Shown here piece after piece: positions 6,084-12,972 of a stretch of 52,579 nt of DNA. Origin of the DNA: a virus (lineage: Duplodnaviria > Heunggongvirae > Uroviricota > Caudoviricetes); the IMG/VR virus record IMGVR_UViG_2684622554_000006; one strand, written 5' to 3'. Position numbers and translations under genes: made by a program. Within the stretch, counting starts at the first letter, position 1, and each line of letters opens with the position of its first letter. The notes under the pieces are model-generated. The model was not told where the DNA came from and searched no databases. It saw only the letters and a program-made list of their open reading frames with translations.

Positions 6084-8906
6084 ATGACGGCAGAGTACCT
6101 CAGGGACTGGCAACAACCGCGCCACGCAGTGGGGCGTGAAGGAACGGGGATCCCCGCTCCTGAATCCGCGCTTTCCTCCTGGCTGGATGCCTACCGGGCA
6201 GAGAACGAGCGCCGCCAGGAAATGGCTGATGCGGCGTTCTCAGCCACGCCGCTGGGCAACCTGATTAATAAAAGCCTGGACGCACAGGAAAAACAGGACA
6301 AAACCATCACACTGGCAGGAGACGCCAGAAAACAGGCACGTGGCGCGGTGGATGAAGCCATGGCCTCGCTGCGCCTGCTGCCGTCCTATCTGCGCGATCC
6401 GCTTATTCGCCACCTCTCCTTCCTGCGCAAAAAACAGGAAGCCGATCGCCGGAAAGGCAAAAAGAGCTGGCAGGCGGAACGCTATGCACGCGGAACCCTG
6501 CGCAAAATATTCGAACGTCTGGATAGCACTGACGGACGCTGGCTGACACCGGGTTATCGCTCCCTTGCCGGACGCGAACGCCTGGACGATTTGCTTTACC
6601 TGCCGCAGCTCAACAAACACCAGATACAGACGCTGGCCACCATGACGGCGGCGATGTTCAGCAGCACCTTCGAAAAACTCTGCGATGGCTTTGGCGCGAC
6701 CGATGGCGAGCTGACCATGGATGTAACCCTGAAGGCGTATCAGATGCTGGCCCGCATGGCGTTACACCTGCACGCCATGCCTCCACATTATGACGCACTG
6801 ACAACAGACAAAGACCGGAGGAACGAACCGGACACGGAGCTGCTGCCGGGCGCAATCCTTCGCCTGACCTGTGCGGAATGGTGGAAACGCAAACTGTGGC
6901 TGTTACGTTGCGAGTGGAGAGAAGAACAACTCCGCGCCGCCTGTCTGGTTTCCAGAAAAACATCACCCTATCTGAGCCAGGACGCGTTAAGCGAGTTTCG
7001 CGCACAGCGCGAGAAAACACGCGATTTCCTGAAAAGTTTCATGCTGGAAAATGAAGACGGGTTCACGATTGATCTCGAGACAGTGTATTACGCGGGAGTA
7101 AGTAACCCGGTTCACCGTAAGGCAGAAATGATGGCCACCATGAAGGGACTGGAACTTCTGGCCGAAGCCCGTGGCGACAAAGCGGTGTTTCTGACTGTCA
7201 CCTGCCCGTCAAAATACCACGCCACAACGGAGAACGGTCATCCGAATCCCAAATGGAACGGGGCCACAATGCGCGACTCCAGCGATTACCTGGTTAACAC
7301 GTTTTTTGCGGCGGTCCGCAAAAAACTGAACCGCGACGGCCTGCGCTGGTATGGCATCCGCACGGTGGAGCCTCATCATGACGGCACCGTGCACTGGCAT
7401 ATGATGGTCTTTGCACATCCGGAAGAAATCGACACCATTGTGTCCCATACCCGCGATATTGCCATTCAGGAAGACCGCCACGAGCTGGGCAATGATATTA
7501 CTCCGCGCTTTAAGGTGGAGTATGTCGACGGCTCAAAAGGCACGCCAACCAGCTACATCGCCACCTACATCGGAAAGAACCTGGACAGCCGCGCCGTGGA
7601 TGGCATCGACCCGAAAACGGGCAAGCCACGCGTGGACCACGAAACCGGAAAATCAATGGCCGAGAGCGTGGAGCGCGCCATCGGCTGGGCGCGCCTTCAC
7701 CGGGTCCGTCAGTTCCAGTTCTTTGGCATCCCCTCCCGTCAGGTGTGGCGTGAACTGCGCCGCCTTGCCAGCCAGATGGCACGCAATCCGGAAGGCCCGC
7801 AACGGCTGAAAGATGATGCAATGGATGCGGTACTCGCTGCCGCCGATGCCGGGTGTTTTGCCACCTACATTGAAAAACAGGGTGGCGTGCTTGTTCCACG
7901 CAAGGACTACCTGATTCGCACCGCCTACGACCTCGCAGATGAGCTGAACGATTACGGCGAACAGAGCGTACAGATTTACGGGATCTGGTCACCACTCATC
8001 GGGGAATCCTCCCGTGTGTGCACGCATCCGGATAACTGGAAGCTGGTAAGACGTAAACCGGAAGCGGAAGACAGCGCCCGCGAAAATGGTTTTGACCTTC
8101 AGGGCGGCCCTGCCGCCCCTTGGACTCGTGGCAATAACTGTCCCCGTGTACAGGAAACGGACAACAACGGGACAGAACAGCCGGAAGAACGGCCAGCACC
8201 GTGGCCGCAGCTCCCTGACGGCGTTGAAGTGAACGAATGGATGCGCTCACTGAAACGACACGAACGCCGGGCGCTGATGCGTTCGCTTCGTGACAAACAG
8301 GCAAAAAACAGCAGCGATGAAATGCAGAGCTGGACACAGAGCCGCAAACAGCAGCGGCCTTTGCCTGATAACCACGAATTACTCGCTAAAGAATGGCGGG
8401 AGTCTGCTGAATCTCTCGGCCTGCATATCGGTGAACAACAGATGCAGCACCTGTTACGGGGCGGCAGTCTGTACGTTGACGGCAGCATCATTGCACCGCA
8501 GGGATTTGAAATTGTACGCAAACCGGATACCCGCCCGGACAGCCGAATCACGCAGCTCTGGCAGCGCCTGAGCCGTAATCATGGCGTAAGCAGCACGGAG
8601 ATCCGCCATAACCCGGTCGCCAGCTATCTGGCACAGCTGGGGGCATCAGACCCTGAAGCCGCCGCACGCCTGGCATCCACACTTCAGCAGGGCCAGAACA
8701 CCATGAAAACACCCGTTACCGTGCTTTCTGACATGCTGCGCGCCATCCGCGACGCAGAGCACGCACAGAGAATCAGTGAAACCACTGAACGCGCCAGCCG
8801 CAAAGCAGACCTGCTGCGGGGTGGCCTGACCAGTGGAAACAAAAAACAGACAGAAACGGGACTTACGAATCCCGTAAATGAGCAAAAAACGCGCAGCGAT
8901 ATATGA
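6084..8906 (+). CDS. A: Replication initiation protein A (HUH rolling-circle endonuclease)
   Basis: 940-aa ORF with HUH motif (TVHWHMMVFAHPEE) and tyrosine/lysine active-site segment (YIATYIGKNL) typical of P2 gpA-family initiators; RBS and ATG at 6084. Confidence 0.9.
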   Translation: MTAEYLRDWQQPRHAVGREGTGIPAPESALSSWLDAYRAENERRQEMADAAFSATPLGNLINKSLDAQEKQDKTITLAGDARKQARGAVDEAMASLRLLPSYLRDPLIRHLSFLRKKQEADRRKGKKSWQAERYARGTLRKIFERLDSTDGRWLTPGYRSLAGRERLDDLLYLPQLNKHQIQTLATMTAAMFSSTFEKLCDGFGATDGELTMDVTLKAYQMLARMALHLHAMPPHYDALTTDKDRRNEPDTELLPGAILRLTCAEWWKRKLWLLRCEWREEQLRAACLVSRKTSPYLSQDALSEFRAQREKTRDFLKSFMLENEDGFTIDLETVYYAGVSNPVHRKAEMMATMKGLELLAEARGDKAVFLTVTCPSKYHATTENGHPNPKWNGATMRDSSDYLVNTFFAAVRKKLNRDGLRWYGIRTVEPHHDGTVHWHMMVFAHPEEIDTIVSHTRDIAIQEDRHELGNDITPRFKVEYVDGSKGTPTSYIATYIGKNLDSRAVDGIDPKTGKPRVDHETGKSMAESVERAIGWARLHRVRQFQFFGIPSRQVWRELRRLASQMARNPEGPQRLKDDAMDAVLAAADAGCFATYIEKQGGVLVPRKDYLIRTAYDLADELNDYGEQSVQIYGIWSPLIGESSRVCTHPDNWKLVRRKPEAEDSARENGFDLQGGPAAPWTRGNNCPRVQETDNNGTEQPEERPAPWPQLPDGVEVNEWMRSLKRHERRALMRSLRDKQAKNSSDEMQSWTQSRKQQRPLPDNHELLAKEWRESAESLGLHIGEQQMQHLLRGGSLYVDGSIIAPQGFEIVRKPDTRPDSRITQLWQRLSRNHGVSSTEIRHNPVASYLAQLGASDPEAAARLASTLQQGQNTMKTPVTVLSDMLRAIRDAEHAQRISETTERASRKADLLRGGLTSGNKKQTETGLTNPVNEQKTRSDI

Positions 8907-8982: not shown

Positions 8983-9942
8983 ATGAAAATTTGTATCGAC
9001 GACGGCTCCACCAACATCAAGCTGGCATGGACTGAGAATGGCGAACGCCGCAACGCCATCAGCCCGAACAGCTTCAAGTCGGAATGGTCTGCGCCGTTCG
9101 GTGGCATGCAGCCCGCGAACTACATGCTTGATGGCGTGCGCTATGGTTTTGATCCGGTTAGCGATCGCTTTGTCCAGACGACCGACACGCAATACCAGTA
9201 CAGCGATGTGAATGTAATCGCCATTCATCACGCGCTGGTCAAATCAGGCATCACGCCACAGGAGGTGGATGTGGTTGTCACCCTGCCACTGAGCGAGTAT
9301 TTCGACACAAACGCACAGCCGGACATGGCCAACATCAACCGCAAAAAAGCGAACGTTATGCGCCCGGTGGAATACCAGAACGGCGAAGCATTCACTATCC
9401 GTAACGTGCGGGTTATGCCTGAATCCATTCCGGCTGGCTTTAAAGCACTGGCTGACATGAGTCCGTTTGAATCCCTGCTGATTGTGGATTTAGGCGGAAC
9501 CACGCTGGATGTGGCAAAGGTTCAAGGGCAACTGGCAGGTATCAGCCAGGTGTTTTGCGATCCACACGTAGGCGTTTCCCTGATGGCCGATGCCGTACTG
9601 TCGGTGATGGCCACTAACGGTATGCGCACCAGTCACCACATCGCCAATACCATTATCGAACATCGCCATGATGAAGCCTGGCTGCGCCAGCACATCCACA
9701 ATGACGCGCATTACGCCAGCCTGATGGCGGTTATTCGTGAAAAGGAAGAAACACTGAAACAACGCGTGATCCGCGCGCTGGCGGTTTTTTCGGGTTACGG
9801 GCGGGTGATGGTTGTCGGTGGAGGGGCGGAGATTGTGGCACCCGCTATCCGCGAAGTCTGCGGAGTTAATGCGACTTTCATCGCGGACGGGGTGCCACAG
9901 TTTGCTCTGGTTAATGGGCTGTACGCAATGGACAAGGAGTAA
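8983..9942 (+). CDS. parM: ParM/StbA-like actin-type plasmid-segregation ATPase
   Basis: N-terminus MKICIDDGSTNIKLAW, phosphate-2 motif LLIVDLGGTTLDVAKV and C-terminal VMVVGGGAE match ParM of plasmid R1 closely; RBS AAGGAAAA. Confidence 0.85.
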   Translation: MKICIDDGSTNIKLAWTENGERRNAISPNSFKSEWSAPFGGMQPANYMLDGVRYGFDPVSDRFVQTTDTQYQYSDVNVIAIHHALVKSGITPQEVDVVVTLPLSEYFDTNAQPDMANINRKKANVMRPVEYQNGEAFTIRNVRVMPESIPAGFKALADMSPFESLLIVDLGGTTLDVAKVQGQLAGISQVFCDPHVGVSLMADAVLSVMATNGMRTSHHIANTIIEHRHDEAWLRQHIHNDAHYASLMAVIREKEETLKQRVIRALAVFSGYGRVMVVGGGAEIVAPAIREVCGVNATFIADGVPQFALVNGLYAMDKE

Positions 9943-9946
9943 ACCA

Positions 9947-10261
9947 ATGACGACACCAACCAGACGGATAAGTTTCTATCTGAAGCCCGCCGCCGTCAAG
10001 AGTGAACAGGAGGCGTGCAATTACCTCGATAGCCTGCCAGCCTCCGAACGCAGCCGCGCGCAACGCGCGGCCTTTCTGGCTGGGCTAGCGCTCATAAAGC
10101 GCAACCCAGCATTTGCCTACTGGATGGCCGAATGGCCAGAGGACAACCTCCCCTTCAATACCGTTAGCATCAAGGAAACATACCAGGATAATCAGCCTAG
10201 CGGAGTTGAATGCAATTTTTATAAAATAAAAAAGAATATTCAGACCTTATTCCCAGAATAA
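9947..10261 (+). CDS. parR: ParR-like centromere-binding adaptor (104 aa)
   Basis: ATG at 9947 with AAGGAG RBS; RRISFYLKP...LDSLPASERSRAQRAAFLAGLAL resembles the R1 ParR N-terminal region; directly downstream of parM. Confidence 0.7.
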   Translation: MTTPTRRISFYLKPAAVKSEQEACNYLDSLPASERSRAQRAAFLAGLALIKRNPAFAYWMAEWPEDNLPFNTVSIKETYQDNQPSGVECNFYKIKKNIQTLFPE

Positions 10262-10310
10262 TCTGATAATTGTATGTGAACTAATAAAATACAGACCAAC
10301 ACATCATTCT

Positions 10311-10333
10311 GGCACCCTTGCTAACAGGGTGCC
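10311..10333. terminator. Stem-loop (GGCACCCT-7 nt-AGGGTGCC) between the parR stop and the 3' end of the minus-strand cassette; possible bidirectional terminator
   Basis: Perfect 8-bp stem read directly; only moderately U-rich flank. Confidence 0.35.
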
Positions 10334-10344
10334 AATGTTTCAAA

Positions 10345-11187
10345 TCATGATGAAATTGCCGAAGTTTTTTTATCGTGCTGAAGTACCGCAAATGCCATTA
10401 AAACCTCAAGAGAATAGCGGCGATAATACTTAACAAAACCATAATAAAATACTCGGGATGCAGCAATACAAAACAAGAGAAGAAAACAAAAAGGTAACAG
10501 TCTGATATTTATATCTATTAAAAAGGATAGAAGGAGCAGGAACATAAGCAACCAGACTGAAGCGAGAAAAACAAATGTAATGTTTCTACAAAAACCATAC
10601 AAAGCAACATAGTTTTGCATTTTCACCTGATGATTTTTAGAATGTTCATACACATAATGATAAGCAAGGCGAAAAAGATCGCCCCTCAAGCCCTTACGTC
10701 GATATAGCGTAGATACAGAAAAAACATTTATATAACCATCTCGTATTTGCGGCCAAAAGACTTTAATAAGTATAGAATGCAGTGTGGTTTTATGATGTTC
10801 TGCTTTATCAAAAGCTGATACAGGAAATAAAAAAACTCCACGAATAAAATTAACTATACTGAACTTAGTATTATGTCGTTTTATTTTCAGGGAGCTTCTT
10901 TTAGAAAACAGATAAATTGAAGGATACCCAAGTTTACTGTTCATGTATTTTTCAATTAAACAGGATGATAGAATAGATATGAAGTGACCTGAAATATATG
11001 ATAGAACGATTAATACCACATATATAAATACACTTATTATTTCTTTATATTTCAGGATATGGTTAAGAATACCTTCTATATAAACAGGGTTAATTTCAAT
11101 AGAAAACAAAAAAAGGATAAACAGGAATAACCCACCTGGAATTAGATAGCCCAAAAAGTCATAAAATGAAAACGGATTCTGTGTCAC
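10345..11187 (-). CDS. Hypothetical polytopic membrane protein (280 aa): two N-terminal and two C-terminal TM segments around a ~130-aa basic, aromatic-rich loop
   Basis: Intact ORF in a strongly AT-rich island; hydrophobic segments LGYLIPGGLFLFILFLFSI, IISVFIYVVLIVLSYISGHFISILSS, VFLASVWLLMFLLLLSFLI and LLPFCFLLLFCIAASRVFYYGFV; no family recognised. Confidence 0.6.
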   Translation of the reverse strand: MTQNPFSFYDFLGYLIPGGLFLFILFLFSIEINPVYIEGILNHILKYKEIISVFIYVVLIVLSYISGHFISILSSCLIEKYMNSKLGYPSIYLFSKRSSLKIKRHNTKFSIVNFIRGVFLFPVSAFDKAEHHKTTLHSILIKVFWPQIRDGYINVFSVSTLYRRKGLRGDLFRLAYHYVYEHSKNHQVKMQNYVALYGFCRNITFVFLASVWLLMFLLLLSFLIDINIRLLPFCFLLLFCIAASRVFYYGFVKYYRRYSLEVLMAFAVLQHDKKTSAISS

Positions 11188-11226
11188 ACTTCCCCCTGTG
11201 TTACTTGTAAATTAAAGGGTAAAACA

Positions 11227-11724
11227 TTATTTGTTTTTCCGTAAAGGATTAGCTTTCCATCTTCTTACTAACCATTCGAATTCTTGATATGTAGTATCCG
11301 AATTAATGCTTTCTCTGATTGCTTTAATTAATGGCTCGGCAATATCATATGTCTCTACAACTGTTGTGTAAGATGTTCTTTTTATCATTTTTTCATCATA
11401 AATACCTTCACGAATACTTACAGCAACTCGCTCGTAAAAATTTAAAATATATTGAAATTTTCGACGCTCGGCCATTTCTTCATCTGTTATTATGCAACCA
11501 TCACAAGGAAAAACATAAGAACGAAATGATTTGCCTGAACGATGCACTTGTTTCAGGGTATGCAATGACTCTATATATTGCATATCTTGCCGACTCTCAA
11601 AAAGAAAGTTGGCCGTTTGAGTTTTTTTTGCGGTACGCACATTGTAGATAATGGTTCCAATGGCAACCAAAACGCCAAGCAGAACAATAGCATTGCTGAT
11701 GATTTGTAGTGTTATTGGGTTCAT
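11227..11724 (-). CDS. Hypothetical protein (165 aa) with one N-terminal TM helix and a soluble C-terminal domain; first gene of the AT-rich cassette
   Basis: Intact ORF with ATG at 11722-11724, 39 bp upstream of the 280-aa membrane protein and co-directional with it; no family recognised. Confidence 0.6.
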   Translation of the reverse strand: MNPITLQIISNAIVLLGVLVAIGTIIYNVRTAKKTQTANFLFESRQDMQYIESLHTLKQVHRSGKSFRSYVFPCDGCIITDEEMAERRKFQYILNFYERVAVSIREGIYDEKMIKRTSYTTVVETYDIAEPLIKAIRESINSDTTYQEFEWLVRRWKANPLRKNK

Positions 11725-11738
11725 CCTATTTCATCCAT

Positions 11739-11765
11739 AAAAAAGGCGGGGAGCAAATCCCCGCC
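11739..11765 (-). terminator. Rho-independent terminator-like hairpin (GGCGGGGA-GCAAA-TCCCCGCC with a U-run on the minus strand)
   Basis: 8-bp GC-rich stem plus T-run on the minus strand, 15 nt upstream of the cassette start codon; it also contains a GGCGGGGA motif reminiscent of P2-family cos sequences. Confidence 0.4.
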
Positions 11766-11921
11766 TCATTAGAGGTCAACGTAGCTTAGAAACCATCAAA
11801 TTCATCATACATTTTTTTCATATCAACCCCCTCATAGAAATCATAACCACGTTTTGTGGTTTTTGTGACGTATAAACTACATCAAAGGCAAGCCACGGTC
11901 AAATATATAGGCATGCTTACC

Positions 11922-11948
11922 TGCACAAAAGTGCACAAATTTGCACAA
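11922..11948. repeat. Three phased direct repeats TGCACAA at 10-bp spacing (11922, 11932, 11942) followed by a T-run
   Basis: Read directly; helical phasing suggests a protein-binding or bent-DNA element in the non-coding stretch between the cassette and the next gene. Confidence 0.5.
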
Positions 11949-12320
11949 TTTTTTTGAACGACTTTTTACCCTTCCGGCCCGCATGGCGGCTGGATCCGTC
12001 AAGGATCCGTGCGTGCACAAAAAAACGCGCTTTTTCTGCGCGCAGGTGACGGGGGAACAGCCCGCGTTTCAGGGGGTAAATAGCATTCCCTGAACGATGT
12101 CGCAGAGACACAACAGAATGGCCATATTTCTCACGCTGAGCATGAAAAAGGCGTGAGGGCTTTTGATTTGATGGGGTGAAAGGTAAGGCCGTCAAAATCG
12201 CACTGAGGCAGCGAGAACATGCAGTCAACGCGGTGGAATTGCGTAAGAGTCTGACCGTCGATGGTGGCGATAAACTGGAAGGCGTCGTGAAATTATCTGA
12301 TTGATACAGGAGCTGGAGAG

Positions 12321-12347
12321 CCGGGGCATAAATTTTTTATGCCCCGG
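12321..12347. promoter_or_regulatory. Perfect 27-bp palindrome CCGGGGCATAAA-TTT-TTTATGCCCCGG, candidate operator
   Basis: 12-bp perfect arms read directly, about 100 bp upstream of the 12448 start codon. Confidence 0.45.
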
Positions 12348-12447
12348 CGAAGCAGCAGACAAGCGAAGCGCGTCAGCGATACGGCACCTTGCCGACCATA
12401 CTTCATAAGTGCAAAATACGAGCAAAGAAATCAATGGAGGCTGTCTT

Positions 12448-12972
12448 ATGGTCATTAATTACAAGCAGTTAAGAGAAAAACGGGAGCAGGTAAAGGAGAG
12501 CTTTCGCCGCAATGAAGATCTGACCCCGCTTGTACGCCTTGCCCAGGGCATTGTTGATGCTTATGAAATCTCGCTGGAGCTGCCATCACAGACCTGGACA
12601 GATAGCGACGGTAATCGCCAGCATTACGTTTCATGCGGACTGGAAGCAGCCGAAGGATTTCGCAGAATGCCTTTATCCCAGATCCCTGCCGCTACCCCCA
12701 AAGCACGGGGCAGCAATGATGAGCGAAAACTGACTTTTAGTATTGAAACGGTGGTTGACGACACACCTGGCGAAGTCGCGTTCGTGCACACTCCTGTTTC
12801 GATCGCAATGTATAACGATGAAATACAGGTTCGCGTTAATAATAATATCGTGCCACTTAAAGAAGGTAATTCACCCTACACCACCGTTTGTGAAGCCATT
12901 CAATATTACGTTCTCTCTGAAATTGATAATCTCAAGCCTGACGGCACCCAGAAAATGGTTCAACTCTGGTAA
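12448..12972 (+). CDS. Hypothetical protein (174 aa) convergent with the portal gene
   Basis: ATG at 12448 with GGAGG RBS, inside track ORF 12409-12972; no motif recognised. Confidence 0.5.
   Translation: MVINYKQLREKREQVKESFRRNEDLTPLVRLAQGIVDAYEISLELPSQTWTDSDGNRQHYVSCGLEAAEGFRRMPLSQIPAATPKARGSNDERKLTFSIETVVDDTPGEVAFVHTPVSIAMYNDEIQVRVNNNIVPLKEGNSPYTTVCEAIQYYVLSEIDNLKPDGTQKMVQLW

What the first reader, a model, noticed from the sequence alone, without database searches (positions are those of the whole stretch)
10262..11880. AT-rich two-gene membrane-protein cassette in the prophage cargo hotspot: candidate undescribed defence or superinfection-exclusion system
Two intact co-directional minus-strand genes, 39 bp apart, sit in a sharply AT-rich island between parR and the portal-proximal region. 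The first (11227-11724) encodes a 165-aa protein with one N-terminal TM helix and a soluble domain; the second (10345-11187) a 280-aa protein with 2+2 TM segments around a ~130-aa basic loop. I recognise neither as a structural, replication, lysis or known defence family. In P2 this position (after gene A, before cos/Q) holds old and tin, and P2-like phages are known to swap diverse anti-phage systems there. The island is bracketed by hairpins at 10311-10333 and 11739-11765, consistent with an insulated moron. A single-TM protein plus a polytopic membrane protein fits an abortive-infection or injection-blocking effector pair, but that is inference.
Basis: partly seen in the sequence, partly recalled or inferred. 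Interest (0 to 1): 0.85.

Follow-up and report, generated by a model that had tools for sequence, protein, structure and literature searches.

The report
Two stacked prophage membrane-protein accessory genes
The AT-rich island is real and sits in a known phage-defence hotspot, but it is already catalogued and is two independent single-gene membrane-protein modules, not an obligate pair; the first always travels with a tiny conserved upstream gene and its predicted fold resembles a plant immune-receptor domain.

Summary
In detail: two intact minus-strand genes lie 39 nt apart, in a GC 0.27-0.39 island between parR and the cos/portal side of a P88-like (P2-family) E. coli prophage.

The cassette is not undescribed. 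Rousset et al. 2022 list this exact pair as P2-hotspot "System #3" (1,102 occurrences), but it is absent from their tables of tested systems.

It is not an obligate pair. DUF4760 (gene 1) occurs without gene 2 in 50 of 50 diverged loci checked by tblastn. The gene 2 family (4 TM helices, Csx27-like) occurs without DUF4760 in 67 of 69 viral loci. The two genes also differ about 7-fold in synonymous divergence.

New leads:
- Nearly every DUF4760 gene checked, down to 26% identity, has an upstream acidic-aromatic micro-ORF (here MKKMYDEFDGF), usually followed by a terminator. The same micro-ORF recurs in unrelated phages.

Function is untested. The most likely role is lysogen-expressed membrane exclusion or abortive-infection modules.

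The parts
11922..11948 (-). Three direct TTGTGCA repeats at the edge of the conserved cos-proximal backbone block of P2-like phages. They mark the boundary between backbone and variable cargo.
   Evidence: Read from the sequence. Conserved in the P2-like loci and absent in non-P2 DUF4760 loci. In E. coli prophages with other cargo, backbone conservation covers window 11922-12380.
11874..11902 (-). Sigma-70-like promoter candidate: TTGACC, 17 nt, TAGTTT. In orthologous loci it overlaps a palindrome ATTACC-N5-GGTAAT, which is degenerate here (CTTGCC...TGTAGT).
   Evidence: Upstream alignment of 20 loci and the sequence itself. The consensus scan found a different weak candidate at 11869-11840, and promoter-like hits overall were not above chance. 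Function was not tested.
11786..11821 (-). 11-codon micro-ORF MKKMYDEFDGF* with a strong Shine-Dalgarno sequence (GAGGGGG).
   Evidence: Present once per locus, just upstream of DUF4760, in loci that were found by DUF4760 homology. Across the DEFDGF codons, only synonymous third positions vary. Variants appear in diverged loci: DEYDWF, DEYDGL, DEYEGV, DEFEWV, EEYEGI, NEGWDF, DGWDDI.
11737..11767 (-). Intrinsic terminator (GAGGCGGGG-loop-CCCCGCCTT plus T6) between the micro-ORF and the gene 1 start codon. Candidate attenuator.
   Evidence: Terminator scan. RNAfold gives -13 to -19 kcal/mol in all 26 variants folded. RNAalifold finds a 9-bp stem with one compensatory change in L033. Stem sequences in diverged loci are entirely different.
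11227..11724 (-). Gene 1: DUF4760 protein, 165 aa (WP_001068329). One N-terminal TM helix followed by a helical domain whose fold resembles the EDS1-family EP domain. The helical domain is probably cytoplasmic.
11188..11226 (-). 39-nt spacer carrying the gene 2 Shine-Dalgarno sequence (GGGGGA). No terminator was found here, so the two genes are probably co-transcribed.
   Evidence: Sequence. The terminator scan finds nothing here. The spacer length is the same in the diverged allele L147.
10345..11187 (-). Gene 2: 280-aa inner-membrane protein with 4 TM helices, of a Csx27-like family (WP_000193205).
   Evidence: phrog_12528. PADLOC Csx27 model: E=1.1e-5 for this protein, and 57 of 74 family members match (best 2.2e-10). 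676 family representatives. AlphaFold2 pLDDT 89.2, pTM 0.87. No specific PDB fold match. dN/dS 0.28 against L147.
10310..10334 (.). Perfect 9-bp hairpin between the convergent gene 2 and parR. Possible bidirectional terminator, but there is no clear T-run.
   Evidence: Inverted-repeat search. Not called by the terminator scan. Conserved in L147.

Best explanation
The island is a composite accessory-gene cassette in the cos-proximal cargo hotspot of a P88-like, P2-family prophage. It is built from two modules that are independent elsewhere.

Module 1 is a self-contained DUF4760 unit. It has a promoter, an 11-codon acidic-aromatic micro-ORF (MKKMYDEFDGF), an intrinsic terminator, and then a membrane protein with a single TM helix. 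The helical domain of that protein, probably cytoplasmic, has the fold of the plant EDS1-family EP domain.

Module 2 is a Csx27-family membrane protein with 4 TM helices. Here it is appended 39 nt downstream and is probably co-transcribed.

Most likely mechanism (inferred, not shown):
- In the lysogen, most transcripts stop at the terminator after the micro-ORF. Read-through then sets or gates the level of the two membrane proteins.
- Each protein acts on its own at the inner membrane to exclude or abort infection by other phages.
- DUF4760 would act as a membrane-tethered sensor that binds a ligand, a peptide or a phage protein through its EP-like domain.
- The Csx27-like protein would act as a pore or channel-type effector or modulator.

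Shown here: the anatomy, the independence of the two families, purifying selection, the predicted fold, the conservation of the micro-ORF and terminator, and positions typical of lysogen-expressed genes. Inferred: every functional step.
For: - Hotspot identity and variability.
- The exact pair is catalogued as abundant P2 cargo.
- Independence. 30 viral and 20 genomic DUF4760 loci have no gene 2 relative. By gene listings, contexts in Xenorhabdus, a metagenomic P2-like phage, Klebsiella and Photorhabdus also show DUF4760 alone. 67 of 69 gene 2-family viral loci lack DUF4760, and about 30 of 67 sit beside an ORF pair I read as excisionase and integrase, with no conserved partner. dS is 0.039 for gene 1 and 0.276 for gene 2 between the window and L147.
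- Lysogeny-type positions of distant DUF4760 genes: right after cI in a Pseudomonas phage, and beside the integrase in Acinetobacter and Alteromonas phages.
- Purifying selection: dN/dS 0.07 for gene 1 and 0.28 for gene 2. DUF4760 has 13 invariant and 44 near-invariant columns.
- Csx27 relationship.
- Micro-ORF and terminator.
- Prior odds from the literature: 3 of 8 untested P2-hotspot systems and 6 of 8 unknown P4-hotspot loci protected against phages.
Against: - No experiment exists for this cassette. It is absent from the tested systems of Rousset et al..
- There is no match to any validated defence family in PADLOC v2 apart from the Csx27 accessory model.
- The hotspot also carries non-defence cargo, such as ParMR and the cytolethal distending toxin.
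- Only 15-32% of unknown P2-hotspot proteins are predicted to be defensive by machine-learning tools.
- The EP-domain similarity is structural only. Foldseek E-values are 0.2-0.7, Pfam PF18117 gives no hit, and hhalign probability is 0.2.
- No antiterminator structure could be found, so regulated read-through is unproven.
- The same micro-ORF occurs in front of other genes and at operon ends in unrelated phages, so it may not be a DUF4760-specific regulator.
Confidence: 0.45

Rival explanations
1. Obligate two-gene defence or exclusion system. The single-TM DUF4760 protein senses infection and the 4-TM protein is its dedicated membrane effector.
For: The genes are co-directional, 39 nt apart, with no terminator between them. 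The same spacing is kept in a diverged allele (L147). Both genes have similarly low GC, which suggests joint acquisition. Rousset et al. listed them together as one 'system'.
Against: There is no co-occurrence outside this cassette lineage: 0 of 50 diverged DUF4760 loci and 67 of 69 gene 2-family loci. A P88-like phage (L033/L034) has DUF4760 directly against parR with no gene 2. Synonymous divergence differs 7-fold between the neighbours.
Confidence: 0.12
2. Counter-defence. The EP-like domain of DUF4760 binds and sequesters nucleotide-derived immune signals (as EDS1 heterodimers bind TIR products), protecting the phage from host signalling-based immunity.
For: The only structural relatives are EDS1/PAD4/SAG101, whose EP domains bind pRib-AMP/ADP and ADPr-ATP. 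The gene is phage-borne and widespread.
Against: The protein is membrane-anchored, unlike the known soluble sponges (my recollection of the Tad proteins, not checked here). It sits in positions typical of lysogen-expressed genes, next to cI or int. No TIR or other signalling gene was listed near it in the contexts inspected. There is no sequence similarity to EP domains.
Confidence: 0.08
3. Micropeptide-protein pair, in the style of an addiction or toxin-antidote module. The acidic micro-ORF peptide is made in excess, because the terminator follows it, and it neutralises or serves as the ligand of DUF4760. Loss of the peptide, or peptide supplied by another phage, would switch the membrane protein.
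For: The micro-ORF is under selection at the peptide level, since only synonymous changes occur in DEFDGF. Its C-terminal motif drifts along with DUF4760 divergence. The terminator placement would give more peptide than protein. Similar peptides are encoded by many other phages.
Against: No binding data exist and no multimer model could be run. The same micro-ORF occurs without DUF4760 in many phages. Peptides of 8-11 residues are much shorter than the antitoxins I know of (my recollection).
Confidence: 0.1
4. Lysogenic-conversion cargo unrelated to phages, such as envelope, stress or colonisation functions, or neutral hitch-hiking genes.
For: The hotspot also carries non-defence cargo. The cassette is common in ST131-type clinical E. 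coli. Neither protein matches a validated defence family.
Against: Both genes are under purifying selection. Both families are found almost entirely in prophage accessory-gene slots across many genera. The Csx27 family is linked to CRISPR type VI-B immunity.
Confidence: 0.2

Closest known systems
Rousset et al. 2022 (PMC9122126) P2-hotspot 'System #3: DUF4760'
   Same: The two protein sequences are identical, as are the hotspot and the TM counts (1 and 4). It has 1,102 occurrences and is the third system listed.
   Different: It is only a catalogue entry, absent from the tables of tested systems. The paper does not report the independence of the two genes, the micro-ORF and terminator, or the fold.
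Csx27, accessory membrane protein of type VI-B1 CRISPR-Cas13b
   Same: Gene 2 and 57 of 74 members of its family match the Csx27 model. Both are predicted to have four TM helices.
   Different: The genes next to it are DUF4760 and parR, not cas13b or a CRISPR array. Gene 2 is longer than the Csx27 model (280 aa against 206 positions), and its own match is weak (E=1.1e-5). The function of Csx27 itself is only partly known: it dampens Cas13b and is predicted to be a channel.
EP domain of the plant EDS1/PAD4/SAG101 family (Pfam PF18117)
   Different: There is no sequence similarity. DUF4760 has an N-terminal TM helix in place of a lipase-like domain. No heterodimer partner or ligand is known. The EP domain is described as plant-specific and as defining the EDS1 family. 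That the match falls on the EP half of EDS1 is my inference, because the tools gave no target residue ranges.
Rst_2TM_1TM_TIR (phage AC1) and other TM-effector systems of the P2/P4 hotspots
   Same: Same hotspot, with small membrane proteins presumed to be effectors.
   Different: That system includes a TIR enzyme, and this cassette has none. Neither gene here matched any model of that system in PADLOC v2, which I recall includes the Rst models.
Leader-peptide transcription attenuators and regulatory nascent peptides (TnaC, SpeFL, MsrDL, the amino-acid operon leaders; recalled from my own knowledge)
   Same: A short ORF with a strong ribosome-binding site, a peptide sequence under selection, and an intrinsic terminator directly before the regulated gene.
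   Different: No alternative antiterminator fold was found. No Rfam family matches. The same micro-ORF also occurs at operon ends and before unrelated genes. No inducing signal is known.
Prophage membrane exclusion proteins (lambda RexB, P22 SieA/SieB, T4 Imm/Sp; recalled from my own knowledge)
   Same: Small inner-membrane proteins encoded in accessory slots expressed in the lysogen.
   Different: No sequence relationship was detected to any annotated family. No exclusion phenotype has been shown.

Membership tests
Pfam DUF4760 (PF15956) | Profile match above the gathering score | tested here: met
   Gene 1 scores 119.3 bits against a cut-off of 25, E=1.8e-34, covering the full profile.
EDS1-family EP domain (PF18117) | Sequence or profile similarity to PF18117 or EDS1 | tested here: not met
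   No Pfam hit at E<=1. hhalign of the DUF4760 alignment against the verified AtEDS1 EP sequence gives probability 0.2. Caveat: the DUF4760 profile is narrow (Neff 2.4) and the template was a single sequence.
EDS1-family EP domain (PF18117) | Helical-bundle fold that superposes on solved EP domains | tested here: met
EDS1-family EP domain (PF18117) | [quoted passage not shown] | tested here: not met
   Gene 1 has only a TM helix N-terminal to the bundle.
EDS1-family EP domain (PF18117) | Heterodimer pocket that binds TIR-derived nucleotides | not testable with these tools
   This needs binding assays or multimer modelling.
Csx27 (CRISPR type VI-B1 accessory) | Match to the Csx27 profile | tested here: met
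   Gene 2 scores E=1.1e-5. 57 of 74 family members match, best 2.2e-10, and 21 of 74 also match the tm_4 model.
Csx27 (CRISPR type VI-B1 accessory) | Four TM helices | tested here: met
   Phobius result in Rousset Table S5B. The AlphaFold model shows long helices at 8-32, 50-86, 184-224 and 230-279.
Csx27 (CRISPR type VI-B1 accessory) | Encoded next to cas13b and a CRISPR array | tested here: not met
   Its neighbours are DUF4760 and parR in a P2-like prophage. Homologues sit in lambdoid prophages next to int/xis-like ORFs.
Obligate two-gene system | The two families co-occur across diverged genomes | tested here: not met
   0 of 30 viral and 0 of 20 genomic diverged DUF4760 loci have a gene 2 relative. 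67 of 69 gene 2-family loci lack DUF4760. Only the near-identical cassette and one allele (L147) keep the pair.
Validated anti-phage defence families (PADLOC-DB v2) | Significant match to a model of a validated system | tested here: not met
   Gene 1 gives only PDC-S35 at E=0.014, and only 3 of 49 family members match it. Gene 2 gives only the Csx27 accessory model.
Leader-peptide transcription attenuator | Short translated ORF followed by an intrinsic terminator before the gene | tested here: met
   A strong Shine-Dalgarno sequence, an 11-codon ORF with only synonymous variation in DEFDGF, and a terminator of -13 to -19 kcal/mol in all variants.
Leader-peptide transcription attenuator | Mutually exclusive antiterminator structure | tested here: not met
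   MFE folding, with and without masking the 12 nt after the stop codon, always gives the terminator. Kinetic or ribosome-mediated mechanisms were not tested.
P2-family cargo hotspot (gpA-cos-gpQ) | Located between the replication gene A and the portal gene Q, with variable content among relatives | tested here: met
   Gene order is A, parM, parR, cassette, conserved cos-proximal block, ORF, portal. Alternative cargo occupies the site in other E. coli genomes. The hotspot is defined.

The most novel reading that the evidence does not exclude
DUF4760 proteins are phage and bacterial relatives, or at least functional analogues, of the plant EDS1-family EP domain. On this reading they are membrane-tethered receptors for a nucleotide-derived or peptide immune signal. 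Their synthesis would be gated by a previously undescribed regulatory micro-ORF ending in DE[FY][DE][GW][FLVI], which phages of many families also carry. That would link plant TIR-EDS1 signalling to a prokaryotic module and would define a new phage micropeptide or attenuator element.
Probability: 0.12. Interest if true: 0.9.

Novelty: new variant of a known kind. Interest (0 to 1): 0.62.

Why it matters
This is the third system listed among cargo of the P2-family defence hotspot in E. coli (1,102 occurrences), and it is carried by pandemic ST131-type strains, yet nobody has reported what it does.

- **Experimental design.** If the two genes are independent single-gene exclusion modules, they should be tested separately.
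- **The EP-like fold.** If it reflects common ancestry or function, it would be the first non-plant counterpart of the receptor half of TIR-EDS1 immunity.
- **The DEFDGF-type micro-ORF.** It is conserved at the peptide level, sits next to hairpins, and occurs across P2-like, lambdoid and large virulent phages. It is a cheap target for reporter, toeprint or peptide-binding assays, and it may be a general phage regulatory or host-manipulating element.

Tried and rejected
- **Antiterminator model.** I proposed that the conserved ACCUCU box pairs with the GAGG base of the terminator, and that a ribosome at the leader stop codon blocks this. MFE folding of 26 variants, with and without masking, always gave the full terminator, so the model has no support.
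- **PD-lambda-6 link.** The DefensePredictor supplement ties some 332-339-aa DUF4760-annotated proteins to PD-lambda-6 at low coverage. Gene 1 and its family gave no PD-lambda-6 hit in PADLOC, so I dropped this.
- **Sequence-level EP homology.** A Pfam scan and hhalign against the verified EDS1 sequence were both negative. A profile search of PDB sequences gave only noise.
- **Insertion scar for gene 2.** Comparison with the gene 2-less P88-like phage L033 showed that the downstream hairpins are unrelated, so no boundaries could be defined.
- **Search for a conserved partner of the gene 2 family.** Only phage backbone genes recur beside it.
- **Distant DUF4760 members with informative fusions or neighbours.** The last large search returned only single-domain Enterobacterales proteins.
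- **Long proteins ending in DEFDGF.** These proved to be spurious upstream extensions of micro-ORFs. The apparent ParR-DEFDGF tail is a 5'-truncated micro-ORF.
- **Rfam.** No family reaches its threshold anywhere in 10200-12450.
- **Makarova et al. 2019 on Csx27.** The paper could not be read, as it is not held. I cite its content second-hand.
Full report
**What is there.** The window carries a P2-family prophage. The 1.75-kb query is 100% identical to Escherichia phages vB_EcoM-705R2 and Entero_P88. Gene order around the finding is: replication endonuclease A (6084-8906), parM, parR, the two minus-strand genes, a conserved non-coding block, a 187-aa ORF, the portal gene, then the terminase gene. 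GC falls to 0.27-0.39 across the island, against about 0.55 in the flanks. The site is a true variable hotspot. 289 of 5,426 complete E. coli genomes hold the whole cassette. Related prophages hold PIN+HTH, DUF3800, Ea22-like, ClpX-zinc-finger or XF1762 genes between the same flanks.

**Already catalogued, never tested.** Rousset et al. 2022 surveyed exactly this gpA-gpQ locus. Their Table S5A lists WP_001068329 and WP_000193205. Table S5B lists the two identical protein sequences as [quoted passage not shown]. Neither sequence appears in their tables of tested systems. A full-text search found no paper naming either accession, and the only paper that mentions DUF4760 is unrelated. A 2026 survey of P2/P4 hotspots tested only P4 loci.

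**Not an obligate pair.** Gene 1 is Pfam DUF4760 (E=1.8e-34). Gene 2 has no Pfam family.
- I collected loci by homology to each protein and cross-searched them with tblastn. All 30 viral loci whose DUF4760 is 74-90% identical lack any gene 2 relative within 5 kb. So do all 20 genomic loci.
- ORF maps show DUF4760 standing alone between the portal gene and a convergent methylase, gpA or parR in other P2-like phages. One of these is a P88-like phage (L033/L034) where it abuts parR directly. It also stands alone next to tail genes in other phage types.
- Conversely, 67 of 69 viral loci with a gene 2 relative lack DUF4760, and the two exceptions are fragments of this same cassette.
- About 30 of 67 of those loci place the gene alone beside an ORF pair that I read as excisionase and integrase in lambdoid prophages. 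Only phage backbone genes recur next to it.
- One diverged allele of the pair exists (L147), with the same 39-nt spacer. There gene 1 differs by 5 nt (dS 0.039, dN/dS 0.07) and gene 2 by 91 nt (dS 0.276, dN/dS 0.28).

The neighbours therefore have different histories, although both are under purifying selection. Their similarly low GC (0.35 and 0.32, below the 0.38-0.47 of other DUF4760 orthologues) suggests that this particular pair spread as a unit.

**Gene 1.**
- *Which domain is matched.* EDS1-family proteins consist of a lipase-like domain and an all-helical EP domain. I recall the lipase-like domain to be an α/β-hydrolase fold, so an all-helical query must be matching the EP domain. The tools gave no target ranges, so this is an inference.
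- *What the literature says.* The EP domain (PF18117) is described as defining a plant-specific family. It forms the pocket that binds the TIR-derived signals pRib-AMP/ADP and ADPr-ATP. I found no report of a prokaryotic or phage counterpart.
- *No sequence support.* There is no PF18117 hit. hhalign of the DUF4760 alignment against the verified AtEDS1 EP sequence gave probability 0.2.
- *No signalling neighbours.* No TIR or other signalling enzyme was listed among the genes near DUF4760 in the contexts inspected.

The resemblance is therefore a structural lead, not a family assignment.

**An unexpected conserved leader.**
- *What it looks like.* The "upstream hairpin" is an intrinsic terminator lying about 18 nt before the gene 1 ATG. 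Just upstream of it is an 11-codon ORF with a strong Shine-Dalgarno sequence, MKKMYDEFDGF (11821-11786).
- *Conservation.* Among 16 distinct loci chosen by DUF4760 homology, the N-terminal residues vary (MKKL, MRKM, MKRA, MCNL, MTQR, MKKW). The DEFDGF codons change only at synonymous third positions, and all six third positions vary. The terminator stem is kept, with one compensatory change (L033).
- *Diverged and distant loci.* More diverged DUF4760 genes keep the arrangement with variant peptides: MEAMFDEYDWF, MNSIQDEYDWF, MKKFDEYDGL, MQLDEYDGF, MKRMDEFEGC, MRYSDEYEGL, MKKFDEYEGV and ...CDEFEWV. Their hairpin sequences are unrelated. The arrangement persists in distant phages: Pseudomonas at 37% identity (...REEYEGI* plus terminator), Acinetobacter at 26% (...NEGWDF* plus terminator) and Alteromonas at 28% (MNLRDGWDDI*, no clear terminator).
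- *Not previously described.* No Rfam family matches, and the peptide motif is absent from the searchable literature.
- *Mechanism unresolved.* I could not find an antiterminator, so how read-through is controlled, or whether it is, remains open.

**The micro-ORF is not unique to DUF4760.** By my rough estimate, chance would give only a handful of hits for 15 fixed and 5 two-fold-degenerate positions; the size of the collection is my own approximation. Of the 118 matches I scored, 34 precede DUF4760. The rest are 8-21-codon ORFs in other settings, and the examples I inspected mostly have a hairpin within 0-20 nt of the stop codon:
- MYDEFDGF and MLDEFDGF lie after a hairpin downstream of a 167-aa ORF that I read as a lambdoid Q antiterminator, and before ORFs that look like holin and endolysin.
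- MKDEFDGF lies at an operon end, before a palindrome and a terminator.
- MKKKRMNDEFDGF lies before a different 174-aa cargo gene next to TTGTGCA-type sequence, which suggests the same P2 hotspot.
- Tandem forms occur, such as MKDEFEWCDEFDGF.
- A 21-aa form lies before ORFs that look like the T4 gp47/gp46 nuclease pair in a 102-kb phage.

The gene 2 family has no such element.

**Interpretation.** The anatomy is secure. The function is inferred from position: lysogen-type accessory slots, right after cI in a Pseudomonas phage and beside the integrase in others. It also rests on membrane localisation, purifying selection, the Csx27 relationship, and the track record of this hotspot, where 3 of 8 and 6 of 8 previously unknown loci protected against phages. 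I therefore favour two stacked single-gene membrane exclusion or abortive-infection modules, with DUF4760 output set by the micro-ORF and terminator (confidence about 0.45). The rivals are an obligate pair (0.12), counter-defence by signal sequestration (0.08), a micropeptide-protein switch (0.10), and non-phage lysogenic conversion or neutral cargo (0.20).

**Verdict.**
- The cassette itself is not new.
- The claim of a two-gene system is weakened.
- Two findings from this work justify a moderately high interest score. One is the EP-domain-like predicted fold. The other is a widely conserved, undescribed micro-ORF and terminator element.

Noticed in passing
window 11786-11821 (-); loci L148-L264: Micro-ORFs ending in DEFDGF-stop occur in at least 120 viral contigs, in P2-like, lambdoid and 100-170-kb phages. 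Most of the examples inspected sit next to a hairpin, and many are not associated with DUF4760. Tandem forms exist, such as MKDEFEWCDEFDGF. The motif has no literature or Rfam record.
   Followed up: partly
window about 11748 (inside the terminator loop); L014, L051; genomes H4-H8: In several E. coli genomes, including an ST131 strain, an IS421 (IS4-family) element is inserted inside the terminator hairpin between the micro-ORF and DUF4760. This separates the genes from their leader.
   Followed up: no
window 11874-11902 (-) and the orthologous loci: In most DUF4760 loci, including non-P2 phages and Klebsiella, a palindrome ATTACC-N5-GGTAAT overlaps the putative -10 region and looks like an operator. 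In this window and in L147 it is degenerate (CTTGCC...TGTAGT), which could mean the cassette has lost that regulation.
   Followed up: no
window 11922-11948 (-): Three TTGTGCA direct repeats, 10 nt apart start to start, are conserved in P2-like phages at the edge of the cos-proximal backbone block. Their function is unknown.
   Followed up: no
window 12409-12972 (+): The 187-aa ORF (WP_000236495, phrog_5091, no Pfam family, GC 0.47) between the conserved block and the portal gene is itself variable cargo. Many related prophages join the conserved block directly to the portal gene.
   Followed up: partly
window 12320-12348: A perfect 13-bp inverted repeat (GCCGGGGCATAAA / TTTATGCCCCGGC, 3-nt loop) lies within the conserved cos-proximal block.
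   Followed up: no
window 8983-10261 (+): ParM/ParR plasmid-partition genes lie inside the P2-like prophage (Pfam StbA_N, ParM_N and Plasmid_stab_B). Rousset et al. report these in about a quarter of E. coli P2-like phages.
   Followed up: partly
L164, L156, L177, L187, L216 (also L151, L155, L174): A different 174-aa cargo gene (MKKYEYMLMKEALRAGLAPCPV...) follows TTGTGCA-type sequence, which suggests the P2 hotspot. It is preceded by MKKKRMNDEFDGF plus a hairpin. In some loci the micro-ORF is 5'-truncated, which suggests recombination breakpoints inside it.
   Followed up: partly
DefensePredictor supplement (PMC13092281, file 3): Longer proteins (332-339 aa) annotated as DUF4760-containing are scored there as predicted novel defence genes, with weak, low-coverage similarity to PD-lambda-6. 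The stored file is truncated, so the absence of WP_001068329 from it is not informative.
   Followed up: partly
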